46,390 nt of DNA from Candidatus Alectryobacillus merdavium (GCA_017694735.1 JADIMN010000040.1:1-46390), one strand, 5' to 3'. Counted from the first letter of the stretch, positions 21,570 to 40,555 are shown. Numbers and translations: made by a program. The notes: generated by a model from the letters alone, not told the origin.

Positions 21570-22133
21570 CTAATTTTTAAAAATTGAGTAAATGTAGAAA
21601 ATTAAAGAATTTTTGTAATTTCTTATGTCTAGTTTTGATAACTCGATAAATTTATTTAATCTATAATTAAACGTATTTCTATGCAAATATAAGGAATTTG
21701 CAGCTAATAATGCATTCAAATTACATTTTAAATAATAAGAAGCACAATCTAATAAATCCTTATCAATATTATCAAATATTTTTTCTAAAGCATTAACGAT
21801 GTCTTTATTTTTATATAAATAGGCTTTTAATATTACTTCATCTAATGAAAAAACACCTTTTTTTTTATTTAAAATTAAGCTTTCCATAGATAATTCACTT
21901 AAATTATTTAAATCAAAAGTTTCTAAAAAAACTACTGCAATTCCTAAATCATTTAATAAAATATTATAAATATTTAATAGTCTAACAGAAAAGTTTTCAT
22001 CAGCCATTATAATTCCATTATTATCATCGGAAAACTCAATATCTATATAATATGAGTAGGATTTTCTAATTATTTCATTAAAACTAGATTTATCTAGTTT
22101 TGAATATGAATGAAAATAGTAATACTTAAACAT
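21570..22133 (-). CDS. PucR/CdaR-family transcriptional regulator (short form)
   Basis: C-terminal HTH LYLHRNTFNYRLNKFIELSKLDIRN matches the PucR_C (HTH_30) signature xHRNTxxYRLxK. Confidence 0.7.
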   Translation of the reverse strand: MFKYYYFHSYSKLDKSSFNEIIRKSYSYYIDIEFSDDNNGIIMADENFSVRLLNIYNILLNDLGIAVVFLETFDLNNLSELSMESLILNKKKGVFSLDEVILKAYLYKNKDIVNALEKIFDNIDKDLLDCASYYLKCNLNALLAANSLYLHRNTFNYRLNKFIELSKLDIRNYKNSLIFYIYSIFKN

Positions 22134-22250: not shown

Positions 22251-22712
22251 TTAATTATTTGGTGCTACATAATAAGCAATATCTAAATAACTTTGAGATT
22301 TTACAATAATTAAAATTTCTGCAGGACTACCATTATAGTAAATTGATAACTCACCTCTTTCATTGCTATCGCCAATTAATATATCAAAATTAATAAAATA
22401 ATTTGTTTTAGAATTAAATAGACTTGTCTCTGGCATAGTATCATCAATCATTGTAAAATCTATAATAAGATTATCAAAATTTAAATAAATTAATCCATAT
22501 TCTTGTTCACATACTAATTGATATTCTTCTGGTTCACTTTTATAAGTATATAAAACCGAACTACTATCCTCTTTTGAAGAAAAAACTACATTGTTTGATT
22601 CAATACATTCATAATTTACGTCGTAGCATAGAATTCCAGGAGCACAAATATTTGGATATGAAGGAGCTTCCATAAAACTAGATATAATAAATAATACTAT
22701 AAAAACAATCAA
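22251..22712 (-). CDS. Cys-rich single-pass membrane protein, anti-sigma-like; real N-terminus probably lies upstream (frame open to 22883)
   Basis: The track start is a TTG inside a hydrophobic helix. The same frame is open back to 22883 and encodes a ~38-aa head plus a full TM (LFILIGAIFGALLLLTPLIVFIVLFII), but has no ATG/GTG/TTG. See the frameshift finding. Confidence 0.5.
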   Translation of the reverse strand: MIVFIVLFIISSFMEAPSYPNICAPGILCYDVNYECIESNNVVFSSKEDSSSVLYTYKSEPEEYQLVCEQEYGLIYLNFDNLIIDFTMIDDTMPETSLFNSKTNYFINFDILIGDSNERGELSIYYNGSPAEILIIVKSQSYLDIAYYVAPNN

Positions 22713-22846
22713 AGGAGTTAAAAGTAATAACGCACCAAAAATAGCTCCAATTAAAATAAATAAATTTCTTTTATTTAAAATAGATACATTTTGTAAAACC
22801 GAAAAATCAATTTTATTATAATCAACAAATTCAGAAGAGATTGATT

Positions 22847-23278
22847 TTAAAGAATATCCACTAATATCAAAAGTTTTTTTATTTTAATATATTCTGAACG
22901 TGTCAAATTTAAAATTTTTCTTATTTTTTTATCAGAAATTTCTAACTTTTTTAAAAGTACATAGTACAAATTTCTGCTTGGCTCAATATTCTCATACTCT
23001 TCAAAAACATTTTCTAAATAAAATGGAACTCTTTTCCCATTGCCAGTTGATAATGAAAATATATAATCTATTATGTCTCTTTTTTTAATATACTTATAAT
23101 TTTTTAAGAAAACATTTATATTATCAACAATTTCTTTTTCTGCTATTTTTATATCAGCGTTACAACAAAGAGAAAAGTAAATAAAATATTTTATATATTT
23201 CTTATTACTTTTTAAAAAAGCAGACTTAATAATTGAAATATTTTCATATTTTTGAAAAATGACGAAATTATTATACAT
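22847..23278 (-). CDS. divergent sigma-70/ECF-like protein
   Basis: Aligns by eye to the bona fide sigma at 5349-5888 (ADIKIAEKEIVDNINVFLKNYKYIKKRDIIDYIFSLS vs DHLVAEDLLQDTFVRFLSNSHKIKPKESILGYLMVIS) and has a region-4-like HTH (ISDKKIRKILNLTRSEYIKIKK). Start placed at ATG 23278, preceded by AAGGAG. Confidence 0.5.
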   Translation of the reverse strand: MYNNFVIFQKYENISIIKSAFLKSNKKYIKYFIYFSLCCNADIKIAEKEIVDNINVFLKNYKYIKKRDIIDYIFSLSTGNGKRVPFYLENVFEEYENIEPSRNLYYVLLKKLEISDKKIRKILNLTRSEYIKIKKLLILVDIL

Positions 23279-23289
23279 AACGGACTCCT

Positions 23290-24588
23290 TTAACATGTCA
23301 TTAATTTTCCACACGAACACCTATATCTATAGTGATTTATATAAAACTCCTTATAATAGATTCTGTGATTATCGTGATTAGTATAACTATCTATCCAAAG
23401 TTTTGAGCCATCATGATCAAAGCTTGCTTGACTAATAATAATTTGAGATGAACCTGGATACCCATAATGAACCAATAACTTGCCACTTTCATACATTCCA
23501 TAAGCAATAATTCCATGAGAAATATATTGATTTTCATTCGTATTTTCAACACTATCTAAGCTTGGATACCATCCACATAAAACAACTGGCTTGGATAAAA
23601 ATGCTTTTAGCATATTTTCTACTCCCCAAAATTTTGAGACACTTGTTTTACAATTATAACTTATATTTTTACCATTTAAAAATTCATCAACTTTATCCCC
23701 CATAGGAACAGCCCAGGTACTGCCTGCTTCAGGCCAATTATCAAAAATTATTTCATTGCTTAACCCTGGCACATCATTATTTTCTTCATTTGCCAAAATT
23801 ACATATTTATTAAATTCTACATCACTTAAAAAACCAGGTGTTAAAATGTCGTTATAAAGAATAATCATCATTGTAGCAACATAAACACAAATATTATTTA
23901 CATTGATTGGAACTTCGTTTTCACTATTTGCGTTTCTAAAATAGTCAGAATAAGGAACTTCATATTCAGCCTCTGGCGCGTCAGTAACGTCATATATTTC
24001 TAAATAAGAGTCTGTATATTGTTTTATAGGCGAAGAGAAATAAGAATTATCGTAATAATTTCTAACAGTTTCACAATTTTTGATATTCATATAATGTTTA
24101 TAATTTTTACTTAGCTTATTAGAATGTTTCGACAAATAATCAAATTCTGCATTAGTCAAAAATTGCTTATTTTTTAGATTCAAAATCTTTCCTTTTTCTT
24201 TTCTTATAAAGCCATACGTCGGAACATAATATGAATTTCTCAAATCGTTTTTTGTATAGTTAAATTCTGCGTTTGTCGACAACTCCATTATATCGCCATT
24301 CATTATATTATAAATTCCATAACCAGCCGGCTTGAATTTAGCGACTATAAAATCATTACCTTCCAAATCATTTACCAAAACCGAGAAATGTATCTTGTAT
24401 GTATCATTAGCGACATCTCTTATTTCATTTAATAATATAAAATCAATAGCATCTAATTGCTTTTCTCTAATAGATTTAACGTTTGACAAATAAACGTTTT
24501 TATCCTCTTCAGTAAAAGTTAAATTAGCGCAAAAAGTTTGCAACAAAACAGCGGATAAAGTAAAAACCCTAAAAATTGTATTTTTCAT
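23290..24588 (-). CDS. secreted streptopain-like (clan CA, C10-like) cysteine peptidase zymogen with Cys-rich C-terminal tail
   Basis: N-terminal signal-like segment; candidate nucleophile NICVYVATMMIILY and His block ISHGIIAYGMYESGKLLVHYGYPG resemble SpeB GCVATATAQIM / GHAFVIDG..FYHVNWGW; tail RCSCGKLMTC; GGAGG RBS. Confidence 0.5.
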   Translation of the reverse strand: MKNTIFRVFTLSAVLLQTFCANLTFTEEDKNVYLSNVKSIREKQLDAIDFILLNEIRDVANDTYKIHFSVLVNDLEGNDFIVAKFKPAGYGIYNIMNGDIMELSTNAEFNYTKNDLRNSYYVPTYGFIRKEKGKILNLKNKQFLTNAEFDYLSKHSNKLSKNYKHYMNIKNCETVRNYYDNSYFSSPIKQYTDSYLEIYDVTDAPEAEYEVPYSDYFRNANSENEVPINVNNICVYVATMMIILYNDILTPGFLSDVEFNKYVILANEENNDVPGLSNEIIFDNWPEAGSTWAVPMGDKVDEFLNGKNISYNCKTSVSKFWGVENMLKAFLSKPVVLCGWYPSLDSVENTNENQYISHGIIAYGMYESGKLLVHYGYPGSSQIIISQASFDHDGSKLWIDSYTNHDNHRIYYKEFYINHYRYRCSCGKLMTC

Positions 24589-26008
24589 AAATTTCCTCCA
24601 TATATTCTAAATTAACACTCCCAAACAAATGTTGATTTTTATCCTGATTAATTATTCTATAATAATACTCTTTGCATTCCTTAAAAGTTTTATCTTTATA
24701 CTTATTTACAATTTTCTTATAAATATTATCCATATAGGTATTTCTAAATTTAAGATCAATAAAATTTAGTATCTTTTCAAAGCAATAATTATTTTCACTG
24801 ATTTTTAAAAAAACATACTTTGATAACAAAACTAAATGCTTTTTAATTTTACACATACTATTATTAACTCCTAAATTAATTTCTTTTTCAACAATACACT
24901 CTCCGCCGCACAATTTAGCAAAATCACATTTGCTGCAATCGCTTTTATTTAGACCATCATAATATAAGTTTTTTAAAAAATTTTCATTAAAAAATATACC
25001 GTTTCCAATCCGATAATTAGAGTATTTTGCTAAAGGAGCACAAGGAAATATATCATAATTTTGATTTATAAAAATTCTTCCAACACCAGCATCGCATCTA
25101 TTAAATGGTAAATTGTTCTTAAAAGATAAACATAAAAACTTTCCAAAATAGTCGTCTCCGTTTAAAAGACTAAAAATCGGTCTAAAATTGCGATTTAAAG
25201 TTTCTGAAACTAAGAAAGAAGCTAATTTGTTATACTCGTATATCCATTTATCGACAGCATCGTCCGTTAATTTGTTTTCCTTTTCATATCTAACAAACTT
25301 ATAAGAAATCGTTCCAAAATAATTTAAAAATTCAATAAAATTTTTAGTCAAATCAAATACATCATTGGTTAAAGTTACTGCAGCTCCTAAAAATTCCTTA
25401 TGTTTAATTTTCTTAATATTATTTAAAATTAAATCATACGTCTTGCTACCGTCCGCATTTATCCTATTTTTATTGTGAATCTGTTTAGGCCCATCAAAGC
25501 TAACTCCAAAGATAATACCGTTTTTTTGTAAAAAATTGACAATATTTTCATCTAGTAATGACCCATTGCATACGAACGAAATATTAATTTCCTTTCTTAT
25601 TTCTTCTTGTTTTTTTTCTACGTAGTCAATTAATTTTTTTATAAAATTTATATTCAGCAGCGGCTCCCCATCACCGCTTAAATCTATGAAGAACTTTTCA
25701 GAATTTTTATATCTTTCAAAAATTGAGTTTAATATATGTTCTATTTTTTTATCATATTTAAACAAAAAATTACCTTTTTGCTTATTAAAACAATACTTGC
25801 AATTAAAATTACACATATCTGTCGATTCAATACAAATAGTTATTTTTTTGTATAAATCAAGAGAATATTCAGGAGGTGTCAAACTATTTTCATCTAAAAA
25901 AAAGAGTAGGTCTTCTATTTTTTTTGAACATTGCCCATTATCAAAATCTAAATAAAAAAATTCATCAAAAATTAAAATTTTTTTATATTCATAAATAATT
26001 TTTAACAT
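24569..26008 (-). CDS. radical SAM enzyme with C-terminal SPASM domain
   Basis: CNFNCKYC (CxxxCxxC) cluster motif; SPASM cysteines CDAGVGRIF...FPC and CSKCDFAKLCGGEC (Cx2Cx5Cx3C) plus a downstream Cys; 20-nt overlap with the downstream gene. Confidence 0.85.
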   Translation of the reverse strand: MLKIIYEYKKILIFDEFFYLDFDNGQCSKKIEDLLFFLDENSLTPPEYSLDLYKKITICIESTDMCNFNCKYCFNKQKGNFLFKYDKKIEHILNSIFERYKNSEKFFIDLSGDGEPLLNINFIKKLIDYVEKKQEEIRKEINISFVCNGSLLDENIVNFLQKNGIIFGVSFDGPKQIHNKNRINADGSKTYDLILNNIKKIKHKEFLGAAVTLTNDVFDLTKNFIEFLNYFGTISYKFVRYEKENKLTDDAVDKWIYEYNKLASFLVSETLNRNFRPIFSLLNGDDYFGKFLCLSFKNNLPFNRCDAGVGRIFINQNYDIFPCAPLAKYSNYRIGNGIFFNENFLKNLYYDGLNKSDCSKCDFAKLCGGECIVEKEINLGVNNSMCKIKKHLVLLSKYVFLKISENNYCFEKILNFIDLKFRNTYMDNIYKKIVNKYKDKTFKECKEYYYRIINQDKNQHLFGSVNLEYMEEIYEKYNF

Positions 26009-26028
26009 AAAAATCGACCTTACACAAT

Positions 26029-26058
26029 ATAATATTTATCTTAATTGTTAAATTGCAA
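26029..26058 (-). promoter_or_regulatory. putative promoter of the radical-SAM operon (-35 TTGCAA, 18-bp spacer, -10 TATTAT)
   Basis: hexamers counted directly; the -35 sits at the centre of a 20-bp perfect palindrome (26046-26065). Confidence 0.4.
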
Positions 26059-26064
26059 TTTAAC

Positions 26065-26148
26065 ATTGACACCTATAAAATATAGACACCAATCCCTAAA
26101 TAATGTAATATTAAATTAATTTTACTTCAGTCCAACTTTAATGGTTCA
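26065..26148 (+). mobile_element. solo 3'-end remnant of the IS3-family element found intact-length at 40521-42030
   Basis: ~84 bp with about 4 mismatches to the reverse complement of 40521-40604. Includes the last codons of the transposase (TPIKYRHQSLNNVI) and the terminal inverted repeat ...agtccaactttaatggttca. Confidence 0.85.
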
Positions 26149-26243
26149 CCCTAAAGGCATTATAGCCGTTTTTTTAAAATGTGATTGGAAAACGCCTTTA
26201 ATGCCATCAAACTTAGAAAGCGAACCCCTATAATGCCTAAATT

Positions 26244-28433
26244 TTATAAATTTAAGCCTTTTTTTACTTTAGATATTATTTCATCACAAAGTGAAATAAT
26301 GTAATTTGGTATATCAGTAATGCAAAAATCTTTTATTGAATATATGTATTGTGTTTCTACATGAAAAGAATTGCACATATAATCCCACATCACGTCAAAC
26401 TCGTTGTTGTCTTTTATATTTGGTAATCTAGTATTTAATTGTTCAACTAAACACCTTGTTATGCATGTTTTTGAAAAGTTAGTTGCTTTAGGACTTTCAT
26501 ACCATTCAATCGATTTTCGAAAATTAGAAATTTGCGAATATATCTCTTGATATTTGCATTTTTCACCTAGTAATTCGGATAATTCAGAATCGTATTGATG
26601 AAGTTCTATATCAGAAAAGTCCAACCCATTTTTTGAATGTTTAGGTTTGACAGTAGGATGAATAAGGCCGGACAAGTAATTATATAAATCAGCGGTCGTT
26701 CCGTCTTGTATTTCAACAATTCTACGTGCTGCAACTATTCTGCTATATATATCGTTAGCGCTATTCTTTGCGTATTCCTTATACCACAGTAAACTACTAT
26801 AGACATCATATTCGGAAAATGTTTTTTCGTTTAAAAAATGATTTACATTATAAAGATAAGAGAAAGACTTTTTATAGTTTTTAAATCTGCTATTTTTTGC
26901 AAAGGTAACAACTGTTTGAAAATCATGTGTCATTAAAAGAATCGTTTTTCCATATAATAAACTCTTTGTATTACCAAACAAGTAATTAAAAATTGCATAT
27001 CTTTTGTTATTATCAAAAGACGAAACTGGATCATCAAGAACCATTAGTGAAACGTTATCTTTGTTTTCAATAGCAAAGATAATAATAGCCAAAGCATTAG
27101 CCTCACCAAAACTTAAATAATTCAACCTATCTTCAATGATATTTGGGTCGTTTTTATATTTAAAGAATGTCTTAAAACTTTCATCACTTTCGGCGCTTAT
27201 ATTTACCCCATATGGTAAACCAGCAATTTTCAAAAAATCATTAATTATTTTCTCGTTTTTTGTTATTTTTGCTGCTAAGTTTTTAGTTAATTCACATAAA
27301 ATGCTTTTTAACGATTCAGCCATCCCAATAAGTGAATCTATCTCGGAATTTAATACTTTTACCAAATCTCCTAAAGAATCATTTTGAATCGAAACCACAC
27401 AAATAATTTTGTCGTTTAATTTTAAAGATTTAATATACTCAATTAAATTCTCAAACTTTTTATTATTGTCGAGAAAGGCATTAAAAAGTGCAATAGCACC
27501 TTGTCCCCTTATATTATTAATTTTTTCAATTTCTAACTTAATTTCATCAATAAATTTTTGTAAAGGGACGAAAATGTCCTTGTTGGCTTTACCTTTAAGT
27601 GAATTGATTTTAGATATACTTTCACTAATTAACAAATCAGAACAATATGATGCGGAATCGTTGATGTATTTTTGTTCTTTATTGTGCTGCATTACTTCCT
27701 TACTAGTTCCAAATTTCTCTATTTCCTCTACATTTTCTTTCAATGAAAAATCTTCTTTTTCAAACCTTTGACCACAAAATGGACAAATGTTTTCAACCGT
27801 CCACTTTTGGTCGTATGATTCAATCCATTTAAGCCAATTAGCCCTATATGGGCTAGACATATATTTTGACAGCTCAAAAATAGGAGATTGAGAATCAAGC
27901 AGCTTTAAATCGATTCCATTAGAAGAAAAAGCAATGAACAAACTATTTCTAGAATTGATGTCCTTCCCATTCTTTTTATATTCGATAAATTTCTTCGCTG
28001 TTAATTCGTTATATAGTTGAATTAAAGTACTAAATTCATTGCGCCATGCAATTTCACATACTTTTTTAAGAGAATCATTTATGCGTTCAACTTCTTTATC
28101 GTAAGTGTCATCTTTAATTGCAAACTGATATGTATCGTTTAATAAATCAACTCTTTTAGTAAATAATTTATCAAAATAAGCCTTATCGTAAACAACTACA
28201 TTTTGAATTTCTTCTGTAACTTCGCAAGTAGGTTCAATTTCAGGATTGTCTAAAGACGTTATTACATTTTTTAAATCTTGCTCACCATTAATTTTGTACT
28301 TGAGAGCCTTAATTATAGTTGTCTTCCCTATTCCATTGGGACCAAACTTAATATTCAGTTGATTAGCATTGACACTTATTTTTCCTTCTTTTATGCAACC
28401 AACATTTTGTAATTCAATAGAAAAATTATTCAT
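26244..28433 (-). CDS. RloC/PrrC-like ABC-type (AAA_13-like) ATPase with CxxC hook
   Basis: Walker A GPNGIGKTT; long helical insert containing CPFCGQ; signature-like LSFGE; Walker B MVLDDPVSSFD; H-loop LLMTHD; ~200-aa C-terminal domain with RRIVE...LIHP. Confidence 0.6.
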   Translation of the reverse strand: MNNFSIELQNVGCIKEGKISVNANQLNIKFGPNGIGKTTIIKALKYKINGEQDLKNVITSLDNPEIEPTCEVTEEIQNVVVYDKAYFDKLFTKRVDLLNDTYQFAIKDDTYDKEVERINDSLKKVCEIAWRNEFSTLIQLYNELTAKKFIEYKKNGKDINSRNSLFIAFSSNGIDLKLLDSQSPIFELSKYMSSPYRANWLKWIESYDQKWTVENICPFCGQRFEKEDFSLKENVEEIEKFGTSKEVMQHNKEQKYINDSASYCSDLLISESISKINSLKGKANKDIFVPLQKFIDEIKLEIEKINNIRGQGAIALFNAFLDNNKKFENLIEYIKSLKLNDKIICVVSIQNDSLGDLVKVLNSEIDSLIGMAESLKSILCELTKNLAAKITKNEKIINDFLKIAGLPYGVNISAESDESFKTFFKYKNDPNIIEDRLNYLSFGEANALAIIIFAIENKDNVSLMVLDDPVSSFDNNKRYAIFNYLFGNTKSLLYGKTILLMTHDFQTVVTFAKNSRFKNYKKSFSYLYNVNHFLNEKTFSEYDVYSSLLWYKEYAKNSANDIYSRIVAARRIVEIQDGTTADLYNYLSGLIHPTVKPKHSKNGLDFSDIELHQYDSELSELLGEKCKYQEIYSQISNFRKSIEWYESPKATNFSKTCITRCLVEQLNTRLPNIKDNNEFDVMWDYMCNSFHVETQYIYSIKDFCITDIPNYIISLCDEIISKVKKGLNL

Positions 28434-28468
28434 ATAACTTTTATCTCACAATCATAATAGATTAATTA

Positions 28469-28693
28469 ATCAACTTTCTAAATCATTCAAATTGTAAATC
28501 GTTTCTAGCACATCAAACGTCTCTTCAAGATTATATTTTGCTGAGTTTCATCCCGTTTCATCAGTAGACCAAACGAATCTGAAATTAGGAACATCTTTGG
28601 CATTCAATGCTAAAGTCTTATAACTTCTCTCGGTCTCATTTAGTTTAGAACCACTTCATATTGATTGATTTCTAATTACTATAGTAAGAAACT
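28469..28693 (-). pseudogene. 75-codon gene remnant with two internal TGA codons
   Basis: minus-strand frame KFLTIVIRNQSI(TGA)SGSKLNETERSYKTLALNAKDVPNFRFVWSTDETG(TGA)NSAKYNLEETFDVLETIYNLNDLES; protein-like composition, no start codon. Confidence 0.3.
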
Positions 28694-28704
28694 TCTAGTA
28701 ATTC

Positions 28705-31062
28705 TTACTCACTCCAAGATGATACTTCAAAATATAAAGCAGTTTTATTATAATTTCCTAAATTACAATCGTATGGATCAACAATTAAATTGCCATCAAA
28801 ATCTACATTGATTGCAAAAGATGTATTATTTGGCTTATAAGACCAAAGTCCATCACTACCTTGTCTAAACCAGTATGTTGTTGTTCCAGCAGTTACAATC
28901 GCTATTTTATATGAATTATCGCCAGGAATACTATATCTGTTTATTTGTTTTACTTCTAAATTTTTCCCTGAAACAGAATTAAATACATGGTAATCTAAAA
29001 ATAAGTTTTCTATCATAGCAGAAGTAGTTCCACTTGTACTTATACTCTCTCCCATAAATTTTGCAAAATCTCCAGGCTTCTGATTTTCATAATCACTATA
29101 ATCAAACTGGCTTTTATAGTTATTAATAGCATAAGCATAAGAACTTAATTCAGCGAAAGAATTGCAAAAATCTAATTCCGAACCAGACAAACCCATAAAA
29201 TTCTCATCAATTGGATAAAAGGCCATATTTCCTATACAAATTCTGCCTCGGTTATCATCACTGCTAGAAACAAATTCAGTTTCCATATAAAACCTAATAC
29301 GATATGTAGGTACTTCAAAATTTATAGTATATATCCTCTGGTCATTCCTATCTACAGGCAAATTAGTACTTTCAGCAAGTAAATCTAATTCTGTCACATA
29401 ATTATTTCCTTCAAGTCTTTGCAATAGAGCAGTTGTTTGAGAATTATTAATCCATTCACTATTTGGATCTCTCCAATATGATAAATTAACATCAAGTCGA
29501 GAAACGGGATTTTTAAATCTATATTCAATAAACGCCTTATTAATATCTTCATGAATAGGAGACAACACTATATATTCATCTTGTATATACCCTGCTCTAT
29601 AACGTCTAGTTTCAAATTCAAAACCATTAGTAGCGATATGCTCAGTAAACTCAGTCCAAATACTATCATCTTCTTTATTCAATTCGGATGGATATACATC
29701 TTCTTCAAATTCATATTGATCAGGAGATATGTACGGAACATTAGAATAAGTATTAGGAATTTCAAAAAATTGACGACACCAATAATCGTCCCAATAAGTT
29801 CCATCGGTGGAATTTAAAGTTAAATAAACATAAAATCCATCATGTAAATTTTGTTTAATTTGCGTCCATTCACTATCTGATAAAGTAAATGTGTTGGAGT
29901 ATAAAGGATAACTAAGTTCAATATATGGATGTTTTTCACTATCAAGAATTGAAAGCGAAATAGATAAATTACTATATTCAAACCATTTTTCATCAAACAG
30001 GGAAACCCATTTGAAGGTAGGATTTAAATCAAAATAATATCCGCCTATAGTGGTGATTTCGTTTGGCATCACATAAAAGCAAGAACAATATTTCTCACCA
30101 TTGCTACATGAATAATTATCGCAATGTACATGATATGTATTCATTTCAAATGTTATGACAGAGGTCATTTTTTCATATCCAAGTTGTTCAAGAGAAACAT
30201 GAGTTAATGTAATCCCATTCTCTTCATCACGCCAGCCAGTGTGAACGTATATTTCATCATTAATTTCATCATAATCATAACCTATAACGGAATGCACATC
30301 GCCATTAGATAGTTCAACGTTTATAATAACAGGCTTTCCATTTACTATATTTTCTATTGCTTTAGTTTTCATATTAGTTTCATTTCTAGCAATTGTACTT
30401 ATGGAAAAATCACTATTTTCATAATTCAAATAATCCAGCAAATAATAATCAAGTAATTGGCCAAAATCAGTAGCGAACATTCCAAGCTCATCTTCGGTAT
30501 CAAAATATAAATCGCCAAAGCAATCTTTTCCTAAAGAAAGTAATTTCAATTGGAAATAAGAGTTCGAATTTTGTTCAATAAAATAATCATAATCTTCTAT
30601 ACTTATTACATCTTCTAGCAGATCTTGCGATTCAAATCTTATTCCAGGAGAAGAAATATTTGATGGTAATAAATCAAAGTCAGCTCCTGACTGTCGCAAT
30701 TGATTAAAATTTGCTACAGCATCATATTCTTCAGGAATAATATCATCATCCCAATATGTATCATAAAACGACAATAACATTCCTATAGAAACATAGGAGC
30801 AAGTTCCAAATATATTATTTCCAAAATTTTCAGTAAGATTATAAAAATAATAGCTTGCATAGTTATTTTCAATAAATATTGGTTCTTGTTCATTACTAGA
30901 AAAATAATTAAACTTTTCATTAACTATTTCATCGCCAAATTTAGAATGGGCAACCTGCTTAGAGCTATTGATTTCTTTAGCAACCATCATTGCATTATTC
31001 AAGTCAAAAGATGGAAAAATAGCTAATAGAACAAGAGTAAAACTTTTATATAATTTTTTCAT
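28705..31062 (-). CDS. large secreted streptopain-like (C10-like) cysteine peptidase with ~450-aa C-terminal extension
   Basis: Signal-like N-terminus; GTCSYVSIGMLLSFYD (Cys block) and GKPVIINV..GDVHSVIGYDYDEINDEIYVHTGW (His block) resemble SpeB motifs; GGAGG RBS. Confidence 0.55.
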   Translation of the reverse strand: MKKLYKSFTLVLLAIFPSFDLNNAMMVAKEINSSKQVAHSKFGDEIVNEKFNYFSSNEQEPIFIENNYASYYFYNLTENFGNNIFGTCSYVSIGMLLSFYDTYWDDDIIPEEYDAVANFNQLRQSGADFDLLPSNISSPGIRFESQDLLEDVISIEDYDYFIEQNSNSYFQLKLLSLGKDCFGDLYFDTEDELGMFATDFGQLLDYYLLDYLNYENSDFSISTIARNETNMKTKAIENIVNGKPVIINVELSNGDVHSVIGYDYDEINDEIYVHTGWRDEENGITLTHVSLEQLGYEKMTSVITFEMNTYHVHCDNYSCSNGEKYCSCFYVMPNEITTIGGYYFDLNPTFKWVSLFDEKWFEYSNLSISLSILDSEKHPYIELSYPLYSNTFTLSDSEWTQIKQNLHDGFYVYLTLNSTDGTYWDDYWCRQFFEIPNTYSNVPYISPDQYEFEEDVYPSELNKEDDSIWTEFTEHIATNGFEFETRRYRAGYIQDEYIVLSPIHEDINKAFIEYRFKNPVSRLDVNLSYWRDPNSEWINNSQTTALLQRLEGNNYVTELDLLAESTNLPVDRNDQRIYTINFEVPTYRIRFYMETEFVSSSDDNRGRICIGNMAFYPIDENFMGLSGSELDFCNSFAELSSYAYAINNYKSQFDYSDYENQKPGDFAKFMGESISTSGTTSAMIENLFLDYHVFNSVSGKNLEVKQINRYSIPGDNSYKIAIVTAGTTTYWFRQGSDGLWSYKPNNTSFAINVDFDGNLIVDPYDCNLGNYNKTALYFEVSSWSE

Positions 31063-31079
31063 ACAATCTACCTCCTTTA

Positions 31080-31694
31080 TTAAAAATTCGAATTAATATG
31101 AACCAAAATACTATTACTTACTCCATCGCCTGCTGTTACAAAAAATGAAACATAGCCTTCTTTTCCATAAGTTTGAATTCTAAAATTTCCAAAAGGATCA
31201 CGAAATTGTGTTAACATTGAATAATTTGAGGATTCAATATATTTTGTACGATCGCCTTGATAAGAACTTCTCACCGCATATGATTTATTAATAGTTAATT
31301 CTGTTTGTTCCATACTAATAGTAAAGTCAGGTTCAGGATTAGGTATAACATTTATGGTTATAGAATCTTGATAACCACCGCATTCAACTCTAACTACAGT
31401 GCTTCCTTGATAATATCCACAAACCATTCTCGAATCTCCAAGCGTAAAATTTGCGATATATGTTAAATCACAAGAGTAAGTAATTGGTTCAGATAAATTA
31501 CTTACTAAAGTTTCAATTTTGACTTTTTCTCCTACTTCTATAGTTAAATTATCATCATTTAATATTTCTATAAATTTATTTTCATTATAAGAAGATGTAT
31601 CGCTAGAACTTGAATCGTCATAAATATTACACGAACACAAGCAAAAAATAGTTACAAATGTAAAAATTATATTTCTAAAAAGATTGGCTTTCAT
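31080..31694 (-). CDS. lipoprotein with bacterial Ig-like (Big_2-like) domain
   Basis: Start placed at ATG 31694 (GGGAGG RBS); lipobox-like CLCSC-N; LTIEVGEKVKIE...STVVRVECGGYQDSITINV resembles Big_2. Confidence 0.55.
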   Translation of the reverse strand: MKANLFRNIIFTFVTIFCLCSCNIYDDSSSSDTSSYNENKFIEILNDDNLTIEVGEKVKIETLVSNLSEPITYSCDLTYIANFTLGDSRMVCGYYQGSTVVRVECGGYQDSITINVIPNPEPDFTISMEQTELTINKSYAVRSSYQGDRTKYIESSNYSMLTQFRDPFGNFRIQTYGKEGYVSFFVTAGDGVSNSILVHINSNF

Positions 31695-31759
31695 ATATAC
31701 CTCCCATATCAATTTTATTTCATTTATTTTAGCATGAAAAAGTTTATAAGTACAAGTTC

Positions 31760-31810
31760 TTAACAATTTCACATCATTTATTAAAGAACATTAACAATTT
31801 CACATCATTT
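31760..31810. repeat. two perfect 20-bp direct repeats ttaacaatttcacatcattt (31760-31779, 31791-31810), 31-bp period
   Basis: read directly; immediately upstream of a possible promoter (TTGTAC-18-TAAAAT) for the lipoprotein/protease operon. Confidence 0.8.
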
Positions 31811-31819
31811 GATATTAAA

Positions 31820-31875
31820 CACAATATGGTTATAAAAGATCTTTGTCTAGAAAGGGACGTTCCCAGACAATCAAT
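31820..31875 (+). mobile_element. ~55-bp fragment of an IS3 orfB (YGYKRSLSRKG.FPDN) in opposite orientation, abutting the IS end
   Basis: near-identical to the minus-strand coding sequence at ~32115-32175 (YGYKRSMSRKGCFPDN). Confidence 0.65.
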
Positions 31876-33501
31876 TGTAAATGTCAATCTCAAATGGTAG
31901 TTTTGAGGATGCGGATATTTTTTTGGACTAATATTGATTATAATTTAACACAATTTCTTTCGGTGATAAATATCCTAATCTTTTCTTAATTCGTTTATTT
32001 TTAAACCAATTTAGATATTTTTCTAATTCAGTAATAAAATCATCACATGTTGTATGTTTCCAATTATTTGGATAAAAGAACTCATTCTTAATTGTTCCAA
32101 AGAATCCTTCACACATTGAATTGTCTGGAAAACATCCCTTTCTAGACATAGATCTTTTATAGCCATATTGTTCCATAAGCTTTATCCAGGAATCAATTCT
32201 ATAATGAAAGCCCCTATCGCTATGAATTAGTATCCCGGAATTACCAATTATTTCATGAGTTTCCTTTAACATTTTATTAGTTAATTCAGAATTAGGTGAT
32301 TTACCAATTCTCCAGGTAATAGGAGAATCGTCGAAGCAATCAATAAAAGGAGACAAATAAACCTTACCATCTTTTAATGCAAATTCAGTTATATCTGTAA
32401 GAGCTTGTTTATATGGTTTATTCTCAATAAATTTTCTATTAACTATGTTTTCAACTTGTGGACTTATTTCTCCTTTATAAGAAGAATACTTGAGTTTTGT
32501 TTTTGGCATATAAACAAATAATTTTTCTTCTTTTATTAACCGAATAATTACTTTTTCAGAAATAACAATTCCATACGATTTAGACAACTCTTGTTTTACT
32601 CTTCGATACCCATAACATTCTTAATTATTAAGAAATATTTCTTTAATGATTTTCCTTATAGTTAAGTATTTATCAAAGTTTACTCTTTTTATTTAATAAA
32701 AATATGTTGAACGTTTTAAGCGAATTATTTTAAGCAACTCATTAATTTTATATTCTTCCCTTAAGGTGTTGACTATTTGAGTTTTTTTATTGCCTAATAG
32801 ATAATAATCAACGCCTATTTCTTTTTTTAATATTTCGTTTGCTTTTTTTAGAACTTTGTTTTCAAGCTCGAGTTTTAAATGTTCTTTTCGAAACATTATT
32901 ATTTCTTCTTCAAGTTATTGTTTTGATTTATCTTTCTTTTTCATAATTGGTTCACCAGTTAGTTCTTTTTGCCATTCATATAAAGTAACTCTAGTAACAT
33001 TATACTTATTAGCAACAGTAATTGCTGATGATTCTCTCGACAGTAAATCAACAATTGCTTTTTTCTTATCTTCATCATTTAATATCGTTGCCTTTTTATG
33101 AACTTAGTGTTTTCTTATCCATCTTTTATCTTTTTTTACCCATAGTTTTAATGTTGAAGGGGATGGATAGCCTAATATTCGGCATGTTTTAGTTATATTT
33201 TCACCATGACTAAAGTAGTATTCTATAACCGGCTCTTGTTCGTCTTTACTCGATCTAGATGATTTATTTCTCTTCCCTGAAATTAAAGGTTGCCCTTTTT
33301 TTCTTTTATCTCTCCAAGATCTCAATGTGTAACGATTAATTCCTAATGCTCTTGCAGTCTTAGATAATTGTCCATCATAGGTATCTAATAAATTTAATGC
33401 TTTCTCAATTTCTTCAATTTTGTGCATACTTGTCCTTCCTATTTTAGTCCAAGTTTTTGTCCGCACCCCCTTTTTCCTACATTTTGAGTTTACTATTTAC
33501 A
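31876..33501 (-). mobile_element. IS3-family insertion sequence, decayed
   Basis: Imperfect terminal inverted repeats TGTAAATGTCAATCTCAAATGGTAG / TGTAAATAGTAAACTCAAAATGTAG (19 of 25 match) with an inner GG(A/G)TGCGGA match; HTH, leucine-zipper and DDE (HSDRGFHY, DNSMCEGFF) segments. Confidence 0.8.
31928..33466 (-). pseudogene. IS3 transposase reading frame interrupted by four in-frame TAA codons
   Basis: Track ORFs 33104-33466, 32693-32896 and 31928-32587 are all in one frame; TAA at 33104, 32915, 32693, 32621; no frameshift seen. Confidence 0.75.
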
Positions 33502-33908: not shown

Positions 33909-36905
33909 TTATTTTCTAGATATTACTTTACTAGCTACATATTGAACTGCTTGTCTAGAAGAAGAGAAAACGAGATCGATAAAGTCACGATACTTTTTAG
34001 TACATAATTGATAATTCTCAGTAATGTATCTTTTAGCAATTAATCTAGCGGACATCTTCACAAAAGAATTGTCCCTATACTCTTTGCTCTTTAATATAGA
34101 ACTACACGAAGTAATAAATTCATCTCCCGAAACTAAAAAAGACTCAAACATTAAATTTTGTACTATACTTAACTCGCTTTTTGGATCTGATCTAGCGTTC
34201 CTAAGCAAATCTTTACTCGCTTTATCATTAAAAAATCTTGAACCATAATCGTATATTGACAAAATAAAAGCTCTTTTTAAATCGATGATTAAGTTATTTA
34301 AATCGGACAAAATCAATGAATCAGTTTTATCATTTGATATTCCTTTGAAAAACGCATATAAATTATCTAACTCTTTAAAAAGATACTCATTGTATTGATA
34401 TAAAATGATATTTGGCAAAGTTACAATTAATTGAATCAATTTTTCTTTTGATTGCTTTAATAAACTTGAACCAAAACTTTTCAAAAGAACACAACAAATT
34501 TTTAATTCATCTAACAAGGTCTGAATTTCTTTTATTTTTTCAGAAACAGGTTCTTCATAATATAAATTATCCTTATTTTCAACATAATTAATATGTTTTT
34601 CGCTTTCCTTTTTATCCTGTTTTTCATTTATCTTAACAATATCATCATCTGTTAATTTCTTTAGTTCCTCTTTTTTCTCCATTGTAATACCAGAAATGGT
34701 AAAATTTTCTTCCGATAATAAAGGTAAATCTTTTGTCTTGTTATTTATTAAATCAATAATCTTATTTGGAACTATTACGCTATTATATAAAGATGACAAA
34801 CACATTAAGATATTAAAATTTAGGGGCACAAATATATCTTCTTTTAATAATTTAATAAATTCGTCATTATTTCCTTGTCCTAAATTAAGATTAATAAAAT
34901 AAGCTATATAATAAGAAAAAATATCACGATTTAAAAACATAAATTTATTGTCATTCGTTCTTTTGGCAATGAACGACTCTAGCATCAAATTTATAATATT
35001 TTTTTCATTAACGCCCGGAGCACCATAGTATTCATTTTCGTATTTTAATGAATCTTTTATTTCTTTGAATTCAAAAGTACTTTGTTTTTTATCATAAAGA
35101 TTATATGCAATAAATGACAGAATTCTCTTTATTACTTGTATATCACTATTAATTTTATTGCGCTCAATAATTTTTACAAGTTTTAATATAGATTTGGCTT
35201 GGTTAACACTTGAAAACAATAAATTATCAAAGGAATCAGAATTCCTAAAAACATATAATTCAATGTATCCTAGAGAAATTGGATCGCAGATATCGCTAAA
35301 AGACAACGTACTTAATTGCTTTTCTACACATGAAAAGAATTGTTCTTTTGATAAACTAGACTTATCTCCGCTTTTCATTAATAAATCATAAAATTTATAA
35401 GTAAACTCTTTTCTTTTAGATTTTAACATCGGCTGAATTGTATATTCAAGTACTTCAATTTGGTCAATATAGATTGGTTTATTCAATAAATTATTTTCAT
35501 CGGTTCTTAAAAAAACAATTATATGATCAAAAAATTCCCGCGCCTTAGACAAAAAATCAATATCCGAAGGAGAAAAATCATCAATAATAATTACTCTTTG
35601 AGACTTTAAAGTTTCGTTTTTAAATATACTTTTTTCTTTTTCAGAATACATAGATCTAATTTTGCTATTGATAAGTCTTTCAATTTCATTAATCTTATGA
35701 AAATCATCTCCAGAAAATAAAAGAGGAAAATAATTTTCATTAAAAAATAATAAAGTTAAATATTTTGATAACGACGTTTTTCCACTGCTTTCATCACCAT
35801 ATATAAAAATAAAAGGATGACTATTTGATTTAATCAATAACGAATTGAAATCTTTTATTGAAGATTCTTTATCGTCGAAGTTCAAGTATTTAGCTTTATT
35901 CAGATAAGGAAAAACAAAAAGATCCTCAATGTTAAATTGTCTTTCTTGAACTTCAAATTTTTCCAAATCAACAAAACAATCATCATTGAAAGAAATATTA
36001 AGTGAGTTCCATCTAGATGATTTTAATTCTAACTTATGTTGAACATTTTCTTCAATATAGGATTTTGACTCATCGTCCCATTCAAATTTTCCATAATAAT
36101 TTGAATTTAAATCAATCTTAACAAACGAACTTTTATTTGATCCTTTTTTGCAAAAATAGTTTCCTTGGATAATGTTAGTTGTTCCTTCATCAAAAATTAA
36201 TTCGTTTTCAGGAACATGCAAATGGCCGTTTAATACTACATCAACATTCTTTATTAGTTTTGTTTTTAATTTATGACCAATTTCATCATTAAAATAACTT
36301 ACTGGGAAATGCATAAGCAAAAAAACAATTTGATTTGGGCTTTTTCTTGAAATATTTGAAATTGTTGTTTCTGATAAATACGCATAATTCTTTGTATCGC
36401 TACTTTTATTTTCTGTTCCAAAACAAGAAAAAAATACATTATCTAAAGAATAAAAAACAATTTCTTTATTGTCATCCTTAAAAACTAAGGATGTTAAAAA
36501 ATTATTAATAAAGTTAGATTGAACATTTTCTTTTTCAAAAGATAAATATGATGATATATATTGTTTTCTTTCATTATATATATCATCAACATTCTCTTTT
36601 TGAGTATCTCTTATGAGAGAACTTAAGTTGTAATTTTTTTCCTTAAAGTCAATATCATGATTTCCTGGACAAGTAATTAACCTAATTTCTTTTTTGCTTC
36701 TTTCTTTTAATCTATTGAAAAAATCAATGAATAAATTGTATTCATCTGTTTTTCCGCTAAAAGCAATATCACCGCTAACTGCTAGATAAATATAATTATT
36801 TGAGTCGTTTTGTATAATCCTAGCAAAAGATAATATTTTGTCATTATTAATAAAATTTTCTTCAGAACAATGACAGTCCGTTATGAAATAAACGCTGCTT
36901 CTCAT
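33909..36905 (-). CDS. 998-aa fusion: calcineurin-like metallophosphoesterase, P-loop NTPase and long alpha-helical C-terminal region
   Basis: All five MPE motifs (DCH, GDIAFSG, GNHD, LLMHFP, GHLHV) in residues ~1-240; Walker A GDESSGKTS and Walker B RVIIIDDF around residues 370-450; ~520-aa helical tail; GGAGGTGA RBS. Confidence 0.8.
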   Translation of the reverse strand: MRSSVYFITDCHCSEENFINNDKILSFARIIQNDSNNYIYLAVSGDIAFSGKTDEYNLFIDFFNRLKERSKKEIRLITCPGNHDIDFKEKNYNLSSLIRDTQKENVDDIYNERKQYISSYLSFEKENVQSNFINNFLTSLVFKDDNKEIVFYSLDNVFFSCFGTENKSSDTKNYAYLSETTISNISRKSPNQIVFLLMHFPVSYFNDEIGHKLKTKLIKNVDVVLNGHLHVPENELIFDEGTTNIIQGNYFCKKGSNKSSFVKIDLNSNYYGKFEWDDESKSYIEENVQHKLELKSSRWNSLNISFNDDCFVDLEKFEVQERQFNIEDLFVFPYLNKAKYLNFDDKESSIKDFNSLLIKSNSHPFIFIYGDESSGKTSLSKYLTLLFFNENYFPLLFSGDDFHKINEIERLINSKIRSMYSEKEKSIFKNETLKSQRVIIIDDFSPSDIDFLSKAREFFDHIIVFLRTDENNLLNKPIYIDQIEVLEYTIQPMLKSKRKEFTYKFYDLLMKSGDKSSLSKEQFFSCVEKQLSTLSFSDICDPISLGYIELYVFRNSDSFDNLLFSSVNQAKSILKLVKIIERNKINSDIQVIKRILSFIAYNLYDKKQSTFEFKEIKDSLKYENEYYGAPGVNEKNIINLMLESFIAKRTNDNKFMFLNRDIFSYYIAYFINLNLGQGNNDEFIKLLKEDIFVPLNFNILMCLSSLYNSVIVPNKIIDLINNKTKDLPLLSEENFTISGITMEKKEELKKLTDDDIVKINEKQDKKESEKHINYVENKDNLYYEEPVSEKIKEIQTLLDELKICCVLLKSFGSSLLKQSKEKLIQLIVTLPNIILYQYNEYLFKELDNLYAFFKGISNDKTDSLILSDLNNLIIDLKRAFILSIYDYGSRFFNDKASKDLLRNARSDPKSELSIVQNLMFESFLVSGDEFITSCSSILKSKEYRDNSFVKMSARLIAKRYITENYQLCTKKYRDFIDLVFSSSRQAVQYVASKVISRK

Positions 36906-38727: not shown

Positions 38728-38767
38728 AAATATCACCTAGTCTTTCTAGATGATTATACCATAAACA

Positions 38768-40520: not shown

Positions 40521-40555
40521 TGAACCCTTAAAGTTGGACTGAAGTAAAATTAATT

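What the first reader, a model, noticed from the sequence alone, without database searches (positions are those of the whole stretch)
22251..26065. Orphan radical-SAM/SPASM enzyme coupled to a secreted streptopain-like protease, a degenerate sigma and a Cys-rich membrane protein, with no precursor peptide
Four minus-strand genes are packed without intergenic space. The radical-SAM stop overlaps the protease start by 20 nt. The protease stop is 11 nt from the sigma-like ATG, whose AAGGAG lies inside the protease gene. The sigma-like frame overlaps the membrane-protein frame.

The radical-SAM protein has the CxxxCxxC motif and a full SPASM cysteine set (Cx2Cx5Cx3C). That is the hallmark of peptide/protein-modifying maturases such as anSME, sactisynthases, ranthipeptide synthases and QhpD.

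I find no short precursor ORF with an RBS, no exporter and no leader-peptidase arrangement typical of RiPP loci. The only obvious Cys clusters nearby are the protease tail (YRYRCSCGKLMTC) and the ectodomain start of the membrane protein (NICAPGILCYDVNYEC).

This suggests protein-level modification of a secreted cysteine protease or its regulator, under a dedicated sigma/anti-sigma pair. I do not recognise that combination as a described system. One caveat is that a solo IS3 end abuts the operon promoter at 26065, so an upstream precursor gene could have been lost.
Basis: partly seen in the sequence, partly recalled or inferred. Interest (0 to 1): 0.8.

Follow-up and report, generated by a model that had tools for sequence, protein, structure and literature searches.

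The report
Radical-SAM enzyme paired with Cys-ended exoproteins
A radical-SAM/SPASM enzyme sits next to a secreted cysteine protease whose last residue is a cysteine, and the same pairing recurs in dozens of related uncultured low-GC bacteria with unrelated secreted toxins and hydrolases that also end in cysteine, which suggests an undescribed modification of whole exported proteins at their C-terminus.

Summary
The genes are real, but there are three, not four. The 'sigma-like' and 'membrane' ORFs are one 342-aa gene, split here by a 1-nt deletion near 22880 and intact in all close relatives.

The radical-SAM protein is a full 7-Cys SPASM enzyme. It is closest to the thioether-forming maturases CteB and PapB but scores below every curated family cut-off. 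The protease belongs to NCBIfam Mplas_Cys_pep, has a papain-like fold, and resembles streptopain only weakly.

There is no precursor peptide, and none has been lost. IS-free relatives keep the same operon without one.

The main result is comparative:
- 53 of 84 homologous radical-SAM genes have, within two genes on the same strand, a large signal-peptide protein whose last residue is Cys. The tail consensus is hydrophobic-[P/M/S]-x-C-COOH.
- Near versus far ORFs gave Fisher p = 1.7e-13.
- These proteins belong to unrelated families: peptidases, MACPF, aerolysin-like proteins, a zincin and a subtilisin-like protein.
- Within the protease family, members ending in Cys had the enzyme next door (5 of 5). 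Members without the terminal Cys did not (0 of 4 with full flanks, plus 3 with partial flanks).

Best reading: the enzyme modifies the protease's C-terminal Cys tail before Sec export, probably by forming a thioether. I found no description of this pairing. The chemistry and the purpose are untested.

The parts
24569..26008 (-). Radical-SAM/SPASM enzyme, 479 aa. The radical-SAM cluster Cys are 66, 70 and 73. The SPASM Cys are 305, 323, 358, 361, 367, 371 and 386. The N-terminal domain before the cluster motif is only about 55 aa.
   Evidence: Pfam Radical_SAM, 59.7 bits. The best NCBIfam match is PapB, 150 bits against a cut-off of 340. The best PDB match is CteB (5WGG), profile E = 6e-47 and single-sequence E = 1e-19 over residues 49-374 versus CteB 89-419. 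The Cys are invariant in alignment A1.
23290..24588 (-). Secreted papain-like cysteine peptidase zymogen, 432 aa. It has a signal-like N-terminus and a prodomain of about residues 38-176. The catalytic residues are C234 and H358. The C-terminal knuckle is H405, H408, C424 and C426.
   Evidence: NCBIfam NF045837 Mplas_Cys_pep, 65 bits against a cut-off of 45. AF2 model with pLDDT 84. Foldseek finds papain-like toxins, prointerpain A and proSpeB. Invariant residues come from alignment A2.
23293..23319 (-). Codons for the C-terminal tail CSCGKLMTC (residues 424-432). The terminal Cys432 in the context L-M-T-C-COOH is the proposed target of the radical-SAM enzyme.
   Evidence: All 18 radical-SAM-adjacent proteases found in the related loci end in Cys. 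Homologues without the terminal Cys have no radical-SAM gene nearby. The tail consensus comes from 51 distinct tails.
22251..23278 (-). One gene for a 342-aa membrane protein, split here by a frameshift. It has a helical cytoplasmic N-domain of about 150 aa, one transmembrane helix, and an ectodomain of about 140 aa. It is a partner of the protease. Its role as regulator or inhibitor is inferred.
   Evidence: The ORF is intact at 342 aa in L006, L007, P0178-P0182 and L001, and at 334 aa in L008. A 316-aa homologue follows a protease in L090, where no radical-SAM gene was seen on the short contig. The AF2 model has pLDDT 50.
22874..22881 (-). Frameshift site. One T is missing compared with close relatives.
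   Evidence: DNA alignment of the window with L006 and L007. Three-frame translation.
26009..26063 (-). The only upstream sequence shared with close relatives. It holds the RBS and a promoter-like site and is too short to hold a precursor gene.
   Evidence: BLASTN break points at 26063. The promoter-like match at 26058-26029 is no more than chance would give.
26065..26153 (.). Solo fragment of an IS3-type element end, lying directly against the operon.
   Evidence: Inverted repeat with 40516-40604, 96% over 89 nt. IS3 OrfA and HTH_21 genes lie at 41110-41987.
21570..22133 (-). Small PucR-type HTH protein, 187 aa, downstream of the operon. It is kept only in the closest relatives, so its membership of the system is doubtful.
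   Evidence: Pfam HTH_30, 47.8 bits. It is present in L006 and L007 and absent in L001 and L008.

Best explanation
This is a three-gene operon: a radical-SAM/SPASM maturase, a Sec-exported papain-like cysteine protease zymogen, and a membrane-tethered partner of the protease that is frameshifted in this genome.

The maturase's substrate is the protease itself. It is not a leader-bearing peptide. The recognised element is the extreme C-terminus, hydrophobic-hydrophobic-x-Cys-COOH, which here is L-M-T-C432.

Proposed mechanism, by analogy with CteB and PapB:
1. In the cytoplasm, before export, the terminal Cys thiolate binds the open iron of auxiliary cluster I.
2. The 5'-deoxyadenosyl radical abstracts a hydrogen from a nearby residue, most plausibly the hydrophobic residue at -3.
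3. An intramolecular thioether forms and closes a small C-terminal ring.
4. The modified pre-protein is then exported.

What is shown: the gene architecture, the family assignments, the conserved pairing, and the link between a terminal Cys and the presence of the enzyme.

What is inferred: that the tail is the substrate, that the chemistry is thioether formation, that the enzyme acts before export, and what the cap is for. Candidate purposes are protecting or locking the tail, or providing a handle for a surface partner.
For: - Enzyme class. All seven SPASM Cys are invariant. The best solved relative is the thioether synthase CteB, E = 6e-47. The best curated family is the PapB ranthipeptide maturase.
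- No precursor. There is no small precursor ORF here or in the IS-free relatives L001 and L008.
- Conserved pairing. 53 of 84 homologous radical-SAM genes have a same-strand ORF within two genes that ends in Cys. ORFs ending in Cys number 57 of 293 near the enzyme and 24 of 616 further away, p = 1.7e-13.
- Signal peptides. 39 of 43 distinct partners have a signal-like N-terminus.
- Unrelated partners. MACPF reaches 29 bits and DUF6973 44 bits. By motifs read from the sequences, the partners also include a second papain-like family, a zincin (HEFGH), a subtilisin-like protein and aerolysin/ETX-like proteins. All share only the tail [LWFIV]-[PMS]-x-C.
- Co-diversification. Clades of the radical-SAM tree track the tail type.
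- Control within the protease family. H405, H408, C424 and C426 are invariant whether or not the enzyme is present, but the terminal Cys is not. Protease-anchored look-ups gave 5 of 5 Cys-ended members with the enzyme adjacent (L006, L094, L095, L098-100, L101). They gave 0 of 4 among non-Cys-ended members with full flanks (L088, L089, L091, L102), plus 3 more with partial flanks.
- Not a recoding artefact. Stop codons after the terminal Cys mirror overall usage.
Against: - No biochemical or mass-spectrometry data exist. The target residue and the chemistry rest on analogy.
- The enzyme scores far below the cut-offs of PapB, SCIFF, QhpD and anSME, so its reaction could differ from all of them.
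- Its N-terminal domain is about 40 aa shorter than the peptide-binding domain of CteB, so how it recognises the substrate is unclear.
- The AF2 model places the tail as a structured strand beside a probable zinc knuckle. The modification would then have to precede folding.
- About a quarter to a third of homologues showed no Cys-ended neighbour. Some are at contig ends, and one clade is linked to ABC transporters instead.
- In L097, a Cys-ended protease is followed by an IS66 element where the enzyme would be expected.
Confidence: 0.55

Rival explanations
1. The enzyme uses the terminal Cys to make an intermolecular link, not an internal ring. It would attach the exoprotein's C-terminus to a lipid or to the small membrane or lipoprotein partner encoded alongside. 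This would act as a C-terminal surface anchor in organisms that probably lack a cell wall.
For: - The hosts are Acholeplasma-, Anaeroplasma-, Izemoplasma- and RF39-like Bacilli.
- A small lipoprotein or transmembrane protein of 85-230 aa usually lies between or beside the substrate and the enzyme.
- The only shared feature of the substrates is the very last residue.
Against: - No SPASM enzyme known to me joins a Cys to a lipid or to a second protein.
- The small partners are not homologous across substrate families.
- In the protease family the partner persists in L090, where no radical-SAM gene was seen on a short contig.
- The closest relatives of the enzyme make intramolecular thioethers.
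Confidence: 0.15
2. The enzyme modifies another site on the protease, such as the catalytic Cys234 (an anSME-like oxidation) or the knuckle cysteines C424 and C426. The terminal Cys would serve only for docking, or for an unrelated purpose.
For: - anSME is a recognisable relative, E = 1e-18, and it modifies full-length exported enzymes.
- The tail holds three Cys within nine residues.
Against: - C234, C424 and C426 are invariant even in homologues that have no radical-SAM neighbour.
- Unrelated substrate families share only the terminal Cys.
Confidence: 0.12
3. This is an ordinary RiPP cluster whose short precursor and exporter were lost when the IS element inserted upstream.
For: - An IS fragment abuts the operon at 26065.
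- The most distant homologue, L086, does lie next to a 57-aa Cys-rich peptide with a GG-type leader.
Against: - L001 and L008 have the same operon with no IS and no small ORF.
- The upstream region shared with relatives is only 55 bp.
- About 50 loci show the protein-partner pattern instead.
Confidence: 0.03
4. The radical-SAM gene is a housekeeping or unrelated neighbour, and the adjacency has no meaning.
For: None beyond the lack of experimental data.
Against: - The genes overlap and are presumably co-transcribed.
- The pairing is conserved across gene orders and across substrate families.
- Several dedicated paralogues occur per genome.
Confidence: 0.02

Closest known systems
CteB / SCIFF and PapB ranthipeptide thioether maturases (radical-SAM/SPASM)
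   Same: - The radical-SAM core and the seven-Cys SPASM domain are the same.
- These are the best structural and curated-family matches.
- A substrate Cys is the probable reactive group.
   Different: - Their substrates are peptides of 40-50 aa with a leader and several Cys, bound by a full N-terminal peptide-binding (RRE) domain.
- Here the partner is a signal-peptide protein of 250-900 aa with one critical terminal Cys.
- The N-terminal domain is about 40 aa shorter.
- Scores are well below the family cut-offs (150 versus 340, and 95 versus 425).
Anaerobic sulfatase-maturating enzyme (anSME, AtsB type)
   Same: It is a SPASM radical-SAM enzyme that acts, without a leader peptide, on a full-length signal-peptide enzyme in the cytoplasm before export. 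This description rests on my own knowledge. It is detectably homologous.
   Different: - anSME oxidises an active-site Cys or Ser within C/S-x-P/A-x-R to formylglycine.
- Here the shared motif lies at the extreme C-terminus, and the enzyme is closer to the thioether formers.
- The NCBIfam score is 88 against a cut-off of 349.
QhpD acting on QhpC (quinohemoprotein amine dehydrogenase)
   Same: It is a radical-SAM/SPASM enzyme that makes Cys thioether cross-links in a protein subunit which is exported afterwards (my own knowledge). It is the third-best NCBIfam match.
   Different: - QhpC is a small subunit with several Cys-to-Asp/Glu links.
- There is no C-terminal motif.
- The score is 106 against a cut-off of 453.
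C-terminus-directed radical-SAM systems (MftC on MftA ...GVY-COOH; FxsB on FxSxx-COOH) and NxxcB (Asn at -3 linked to Cys)
   Same: They are precedents for SPASM enzymes that read the extreme C-terminus, and for a thioether between a Cys and the residue three positions before it. These are recalled from memory and were not tested here.
   Different: All act on short peptides. None uses a terminal Cys on large secreted proteins.
Cysteine protease plus cognate inhibitor operons (staphopain-staphostatin, SpeB-Spi)
   Same: A secreted papain-like protease zymogen is encoded next to a small dedicated partner protein. This is an analogy for the third gene and for the 190-aa lipoproteins in sister loci.
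   Different: - Those partners are soluble cytoplasmic inhibitors.
- Here they are membrane-anchored, and no inhibitory function has been shown.
- No radical-SAM enzyme is involved in those systems.

Membership tests
Radical SAM superfamily with SPASM domain | A CxxxCxxC cluster motif, plus a C-terminal seven-Cys SPASM pattern that binds two auxiliary 4Fe-4S clusters. | tested here: met
   Pfam Radical_SAM scores 59.7 bits against a cut-off of 29.5. C66, C70, C73, C305, C323, C358, C361, C367, C371 and C386 are invariant. The SPASM region aligns with CteB. The Pfam SPASM model itself gave no hit.
PapB-family ranthipeptide maturase (NF047865) | A score at or above the curated cut-off (340 bits), and a Cys-X3-Asp/Glu repeat precursor. 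| tested here: not met
   The score is 150 bits. There is no precursor peptide, and the tail has no Asp or Glu.
SCIFF maturase (TIGR03974) | A score at or above 425 bits, and an adjacent six-Cys peptide of about 45 aa. | tested here: not met
   The score is 95 bits. There is no such ORF.
Anaerobic sulfatase maturase (TIGR03942) | A score at or above 349 bits, and a sulfatase partner with the C/S-x-P/A-x-R motif. | tested here: not met
   The score is 88.5 bits. The neighbour is a peptidase, not a sulfatase.
QhpD (TIGR03906) | A score at or above 453 bits, and the qhp operon context. | tested here: not met
   The score is 105.8 bits. There are no qhp genes in the window.
Canonical RiPP gene cluster | A short leader-core precursor ORF next to the maturase, often with an exporter or leader peptidase. 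| tested here: not met
   No candidate ORF of 20 aa or more lies outside the main genes. None is present in IS-free relatives.
NCBIfam NF045837 Mplas_Cys_pep (putative cysteine peptidase) | A score at or above 45 bits. | tested here: met
   The score is 65 bits over residues 207-410. C234 and H358 are invariant.
Peptidase C10 (streptopain) | A Pfam Peptidase_C10 match, with the catalytic Cys-His in a C10 fold. | tested here: inconclusive
   There is no Pfam hit at E <= 0.1. The profile hit to interpain A has E = 0.72. Foldseek matches to prointerpain (3e-3) and proSpeB (1.8e-2) run nearly full length but have TM scores of 0.3-0.4. The fold is papain-like, but C10 membership is not shown.
Sigma-70 / ECF sigma factor (the 'sigma-like' N-domain) | Sigma70_r2 and Sigma70_r4 domains. 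| tested here: inconclusive
   There are no Pfam or NCBIfam hits, even on intact homologues. The AF2 model has pLDDT 50. The top Foldseek hits are the PhyR sigma-like domain (E = 0.36) and SigH (E = 1.3). hhalign against real ECF sigmas from sister loci gave P = 0.022 and probability 2%.

The most novel reading that the evidence does not exclude
Uncultured wall-less or Mollicutes-like Bacilli have an undescribed protein maturation system. In it, dedicated radical-SAM/SPASM enzymes modify the terminal Cys of a short C-terminal signal (hydrophobic-[P/M/S]-x-Cys-COOH) on full-length Sec-exported toxins and hydrolases. This would extend RiPP-type radical chemistry to whole proteins and define a new C-terminal tag, whose purpose could be stabilisation, activation or surface retention.
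Probability: 0.5. Interest if true: 0.85.

Novelty: new variant of a known kind. Interest (0 to 1): 0.72.

Why it matters
Radical-SAM/SPASM maturases are known almost entirely as enzymes that act on short peptides. Only a few, such as anSME and QhpD, act on proteins.

This family is different in several ways:
- Many clades pair one-to-one with large, unrelated secreted proteins: proteases, pore-forming toxins and hydrolases.
- The only shared feature of these proteins is a terminal cysteine.
- That would make it a new class of substrate and a simple, transferable C-terminal recognition tag.

The hosts are gut and environmental Mollicutes-like bacteria that are barely studied, so the system may show how they arm or restrain their exoproteins.

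The prediction is easy to test. It needs a co-expression experiment and an intact-mass measurement, and at least one host (Anaeroplasma bactoclasticum, L047) belongs to a named species, which I recall as cultivable.

Tried and rejected
- **Word-indexed protease search.** It found only three near-identical proteins. The exhaustive HMMER search was needed.
- **Genome scan with one radical-SAM sequence.** It found nothing. The alignment-based scan worked.
- **Structure prediction with locus-derived sequences.** The 342-aa protein could therefore be modelled only from five near-identical sequences. The model was poor (pLDDT 50) and its fold search gave no significant match.
- **hhalign of the N-domain against genuine ECF sigmas.** The result was not significant.
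- **Pfam SPASM and PqqD-like models.** On the isolated C- and N-terminal pieces of the enzyme they gave no hit.
- **Metagenome scan with the broad protease alignment.** A narrower alignment returned only 10 loci, several too short to be informative.
- **Literature.** Five full-text searches found nothing on radical-SAM enzymes paired with Cys-ended exoproteins or in Mollicutes-like bacteria.
- **Rejected: the Cys-rich ectodomain of the membrane protein is the target.** Those Cys are not conserved.
- **Rejected: the terminal Cys is an artefact of TGA recoding**.
- **Rejected: a programmed frameshift in the third gene.** All relatives have an intact single frame.

Full report
**What is in the window**

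The region has about 25% G+C and reads well with genetic code 11. Three features lie on the minus strand:
- a 479-aa radical-SAM protein (24569-26008);
- a 432-aa protein with a signal-like N-terminus (23290-24588), overlapping the first by 20 nt;

Three-frame translation shows that the 'membrane' frame stays open upstream to about 22874 without a start codon. Contigs that are 94-96% identical in DNA (L006, L007) carry a single 342-aa ORF at this position. The window differs by one missing T next to 22881. Five further database clusters are all intact, at 342-354 aa. The operon therefore has three genes, and the third is frameshifted in this genome. I cannot tell whether the shift is a real mutation or an assembly error. 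It is not in a long homopolymer run.

**The operon boundary**

Homology with the relatives begins exactly at 26063. The next 89 nt (26065-26153) are an inverted copy of 40516-40604, which is the end of an IS3-type element.

In the relatives, the window's segment 26064-31902 is absent and a different IS3 fragment lies there. That segment carries a candidate defence ATPase (PADLOC PDC-S06, 366 bits) and a 785-aa paralogous peptidase.

Only 55 bp upstream of the radical-SAM start are conserved. No ORF of 20 aa or more outside the main genes could serve as a precursor.

**The proteins**

*Radical-SAM enzyme.* It has the CxxxCxxC motif and all seven SPASM cysteines, invariant across 42 homologues. 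Its best curated match is the PapB ranthipeptide maturase, at 150 bits against a cut-off of 340. The nif11, QhpD, CcpM, SCIFF and anSME models follow, all far below their cut-offs. Its best solved relative is the thioether synthase CteB (profile E = 6e-47). The alignment starts at CteB residue 89, so the N-terminal domain is about 40 residues shorter than CteB's peptide-binding domain.

*Protease.* It passes the NCBIfam model Mplas_Cys_pep (65 bits against 45) and has no Pfam hit. An AlphaFold model built from 38 sequences is confident (pLDDT 84). Foldseek finds papain-like toxins and, over nearly the full length, the zymogens of interpain A and streptopain. The E-values are weak (2e-3 to 2e-2) and the TM scores are low. 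'Papain-like zymogen' is supported. 'Streptopain family' is not established.

*The 342-aa protein.* It has no family hit. Its model is poor (pLDDT 50). The helical N-domain gives only non-significant matches to sigma-like domains.

**The comparative pattern**

An exhaustive search found 62 relatives of the protease. The closer ones share H-x(1,2)-H ... Y-C-x-C-G, which looks like a zinc knuckle, and most then end in x-hydrophobic-hydrophobic-x-C-COOH.

A genome scan with the radical-SAM alignment returned 80 loci. They come from uncultured Bacilli labelled Acholeplasmataceae, Anaeroplasma, Izemoplasmatales, Haloplasmataceae, Erysipelotrichaceae and Mollicutes, often with several per genome. 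I take some odd organism labels in one dataset to be binning errors.

I called ORFs in all loci and found the following:
- 53 of 84 radical-SAM genes have, within two genes on the same strand, an ORF whose last residue is Cys.
- Among ORFs near the enzyme, 57 of 293 end in Cys, against 24 of 616 further away (Fisher p = 1.7e-13).
- The partners are 106-918 aa long, and 39 of 43 distinct ones have a signal-like N-terminus.
- Two partner families have Pfam support: MACPF at 29 bits and DUF6973. By motifs read directly from the sequences, the others are this peptidase family, a second papain-like family, a zincin with HEFGH, a subtilisin-like protein and aerolysin/ETX-like proteins.
- The only shared feature is the tail [LWFIV]-[PMS]-x-C-COOH.
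- Stop codons after that Cys match general usage, so the pattern is not a recoding artefact.
- In a neighbour-joining tree of the enzymes, clades follow the tail type. The window's clade is sister to one that pairs with a 275-aa protein ending ...IECFCEYC.
- A small lipoprotein or membrane protein usually accompanies each pair, but these are not homologous across families.

**A control within one family**

H405, H408, C424 and C426 are invariant in every protease homologue, but the terminal Cys is not. I then looked up gene neighbourhoods starting from the protease, not from the enzyme.
- Cys-ended members with informative flanks all had the enzyme adjacent: L006, L094, L095, L098-100 and L101, which is five distinct cases.
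- Members without the terminal Cys never did. L088, L089, L091 and L102 had full flanks. L090, L092 and L093 had partial flanks.
- Two Cys-ended cases were uninformative. In L096 the contig ends too soon, and in L097 an IS66 element lies where the enzyme would be.
- L090 lacks the terminal Cys. No radical-SAM gene was seen on its short contig, yet it keeps a 316-aa homologue of the third gene. That ties the third gene to the protease and not to the enzyme.
- The Cys cluster in the third gene's ectodomain is not conserved.

**Interpretation**

The most economical reading is that the enzyme modifies the C-terminal tail of its neighbouring exoprotein, and that the terminal Cys is the key residue.

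By analogy with CteB and PapB, I propose three steps. The thiolate binds auxiliary cluster I. A hydrogen is abstracted from a nearby residue, probably the hydrophobic one at -3. An intramolecular thioether then forms in the cytoplasm before Sec export. From my own knowledge, anSME shows that a SPASM enzyme can act on a full-length signal-peptide protein before export, and NxxcB shows a thioether between a Cys and the residue at -3.

These steps are inferred. The chemistry could be different, for example an intermolecular link used as a surface anchor. The purpose of the modification is unknown.

The most distant homologue, L086, lies next to a 57-aa Cys-rich peptide with a GG-type leader that also ends in Cys. 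This hints that the protein-directed clades arose from an ordinary peptide maturase.

**Novelty**

No curated NCBIfam model captures the enzyme. Five full-text searches found no description of such a system. The library is incomplete, so prior description cannot be ruled out entirely.

I class the finding as a new variant of a known kind: a Cys-directed radical-SAM/SPASM maturase with a new class of substrate and a new recognition tag.

The reading of a sigma/anti-sigma pair, the membrane protein as a target, and the lost-precursor caveat are not supported.

Noticed in passing
window 26064-31902: This segment is absent from the 96%-identical relative L006 and is bounded by IS fragments. It carries a 729-aa AAA ATPase that matches the PADLOC candidate defence family PDC-S06 over its full length (366 bits), a 785-aa secreted paralogue of the cysteine peptidase, and a 230-aa ORF with no family hit.
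   Followed up: partly
window 28705-31062 (-): The 785-aa paralogous peptidase gives weak Mplas_Cys_pep and Peptidase_C39_2 hits. It keeps an internal H-V-H ... Y-C-S-C knuckle but continues for about 450 more residues and does not end in Cys. This fits the knuckle being independent of the radical-SAM enzyme.
   Followed up: partly
window 31903-33466 and 39296-41987: This area is rich in IS elements. It holds an IS3 integrase fragment (31928-32587), HTH transposase fragments, an IS21-like transposase pseudogene (39296-39994 and onwards, with in-frame stops), and an IS3 OrfA with HTH_21 (41110-41987) whose end is the source of the solo repeat at 26065.
   Followed up: partly
window 33909-36905 and 37951-38736 (-): A 998-aa protein combines a metallophosphoesterase with an ATPase and gives a weak match to the PADLOC candidate PDC-S60. 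A DUF4238 protein lies nearby. Together with the PDC-S06 gene, this looks like a small defence island.
   Followed up: no
window 4288-5888 (-): A genuine ECF sigma factor (179 aa, with Sigma70_r2 and r4 hits) is followed by an overlapping 355-aa ORF with no family hit. This may be a sigma/anti-sigma pair and is unrelated to the operon studied here.
   Followed up: no
L016 6068-11235: One radical-SAM gene is flanked on both sides by a protease plus lipoprotein pair, and both proteases end ...CGCGALMEC. One enzyme may serve two substrates.
   Followed up: no
L086 9892-10065: The most distant homologue (Halanaerobiales) lies near a 57-aa Cys-rich peptide with a GG-type leader that also ends in Cys, and near a second radical-SAM gene. 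This is a conventional RiPP layout and a possible ancestor of the protein-directed clades.
   Followed up: no
L070, L073, L076, L077, L082-L084: One clade of the enzyme family has no Cys-ended neighbour. Instead it follows an ABC ATPase, an FtsX-like permease and a 260-285-aa membrane protein. Its substrate is unknown.
   Followed up: no
L097 4217-5648: An IS66-type element lies where the radical-SAM gene is expected, downstream of a Cys-ended protease and its lipoprotein.
   Followed up: no
L005, L018, L040 (upstream of the substrate genes): Some sister loci carry a genuine ECF sigma factor (171-181 aa) upstream of the Cys-ended exoprotein. In L018 and L040 a membrane protein of about 200 aa follows it. 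Dedicated sigma control therefore exists in some versions of the system, even though it is unproven for the window's third gene.
   Followed up: partly
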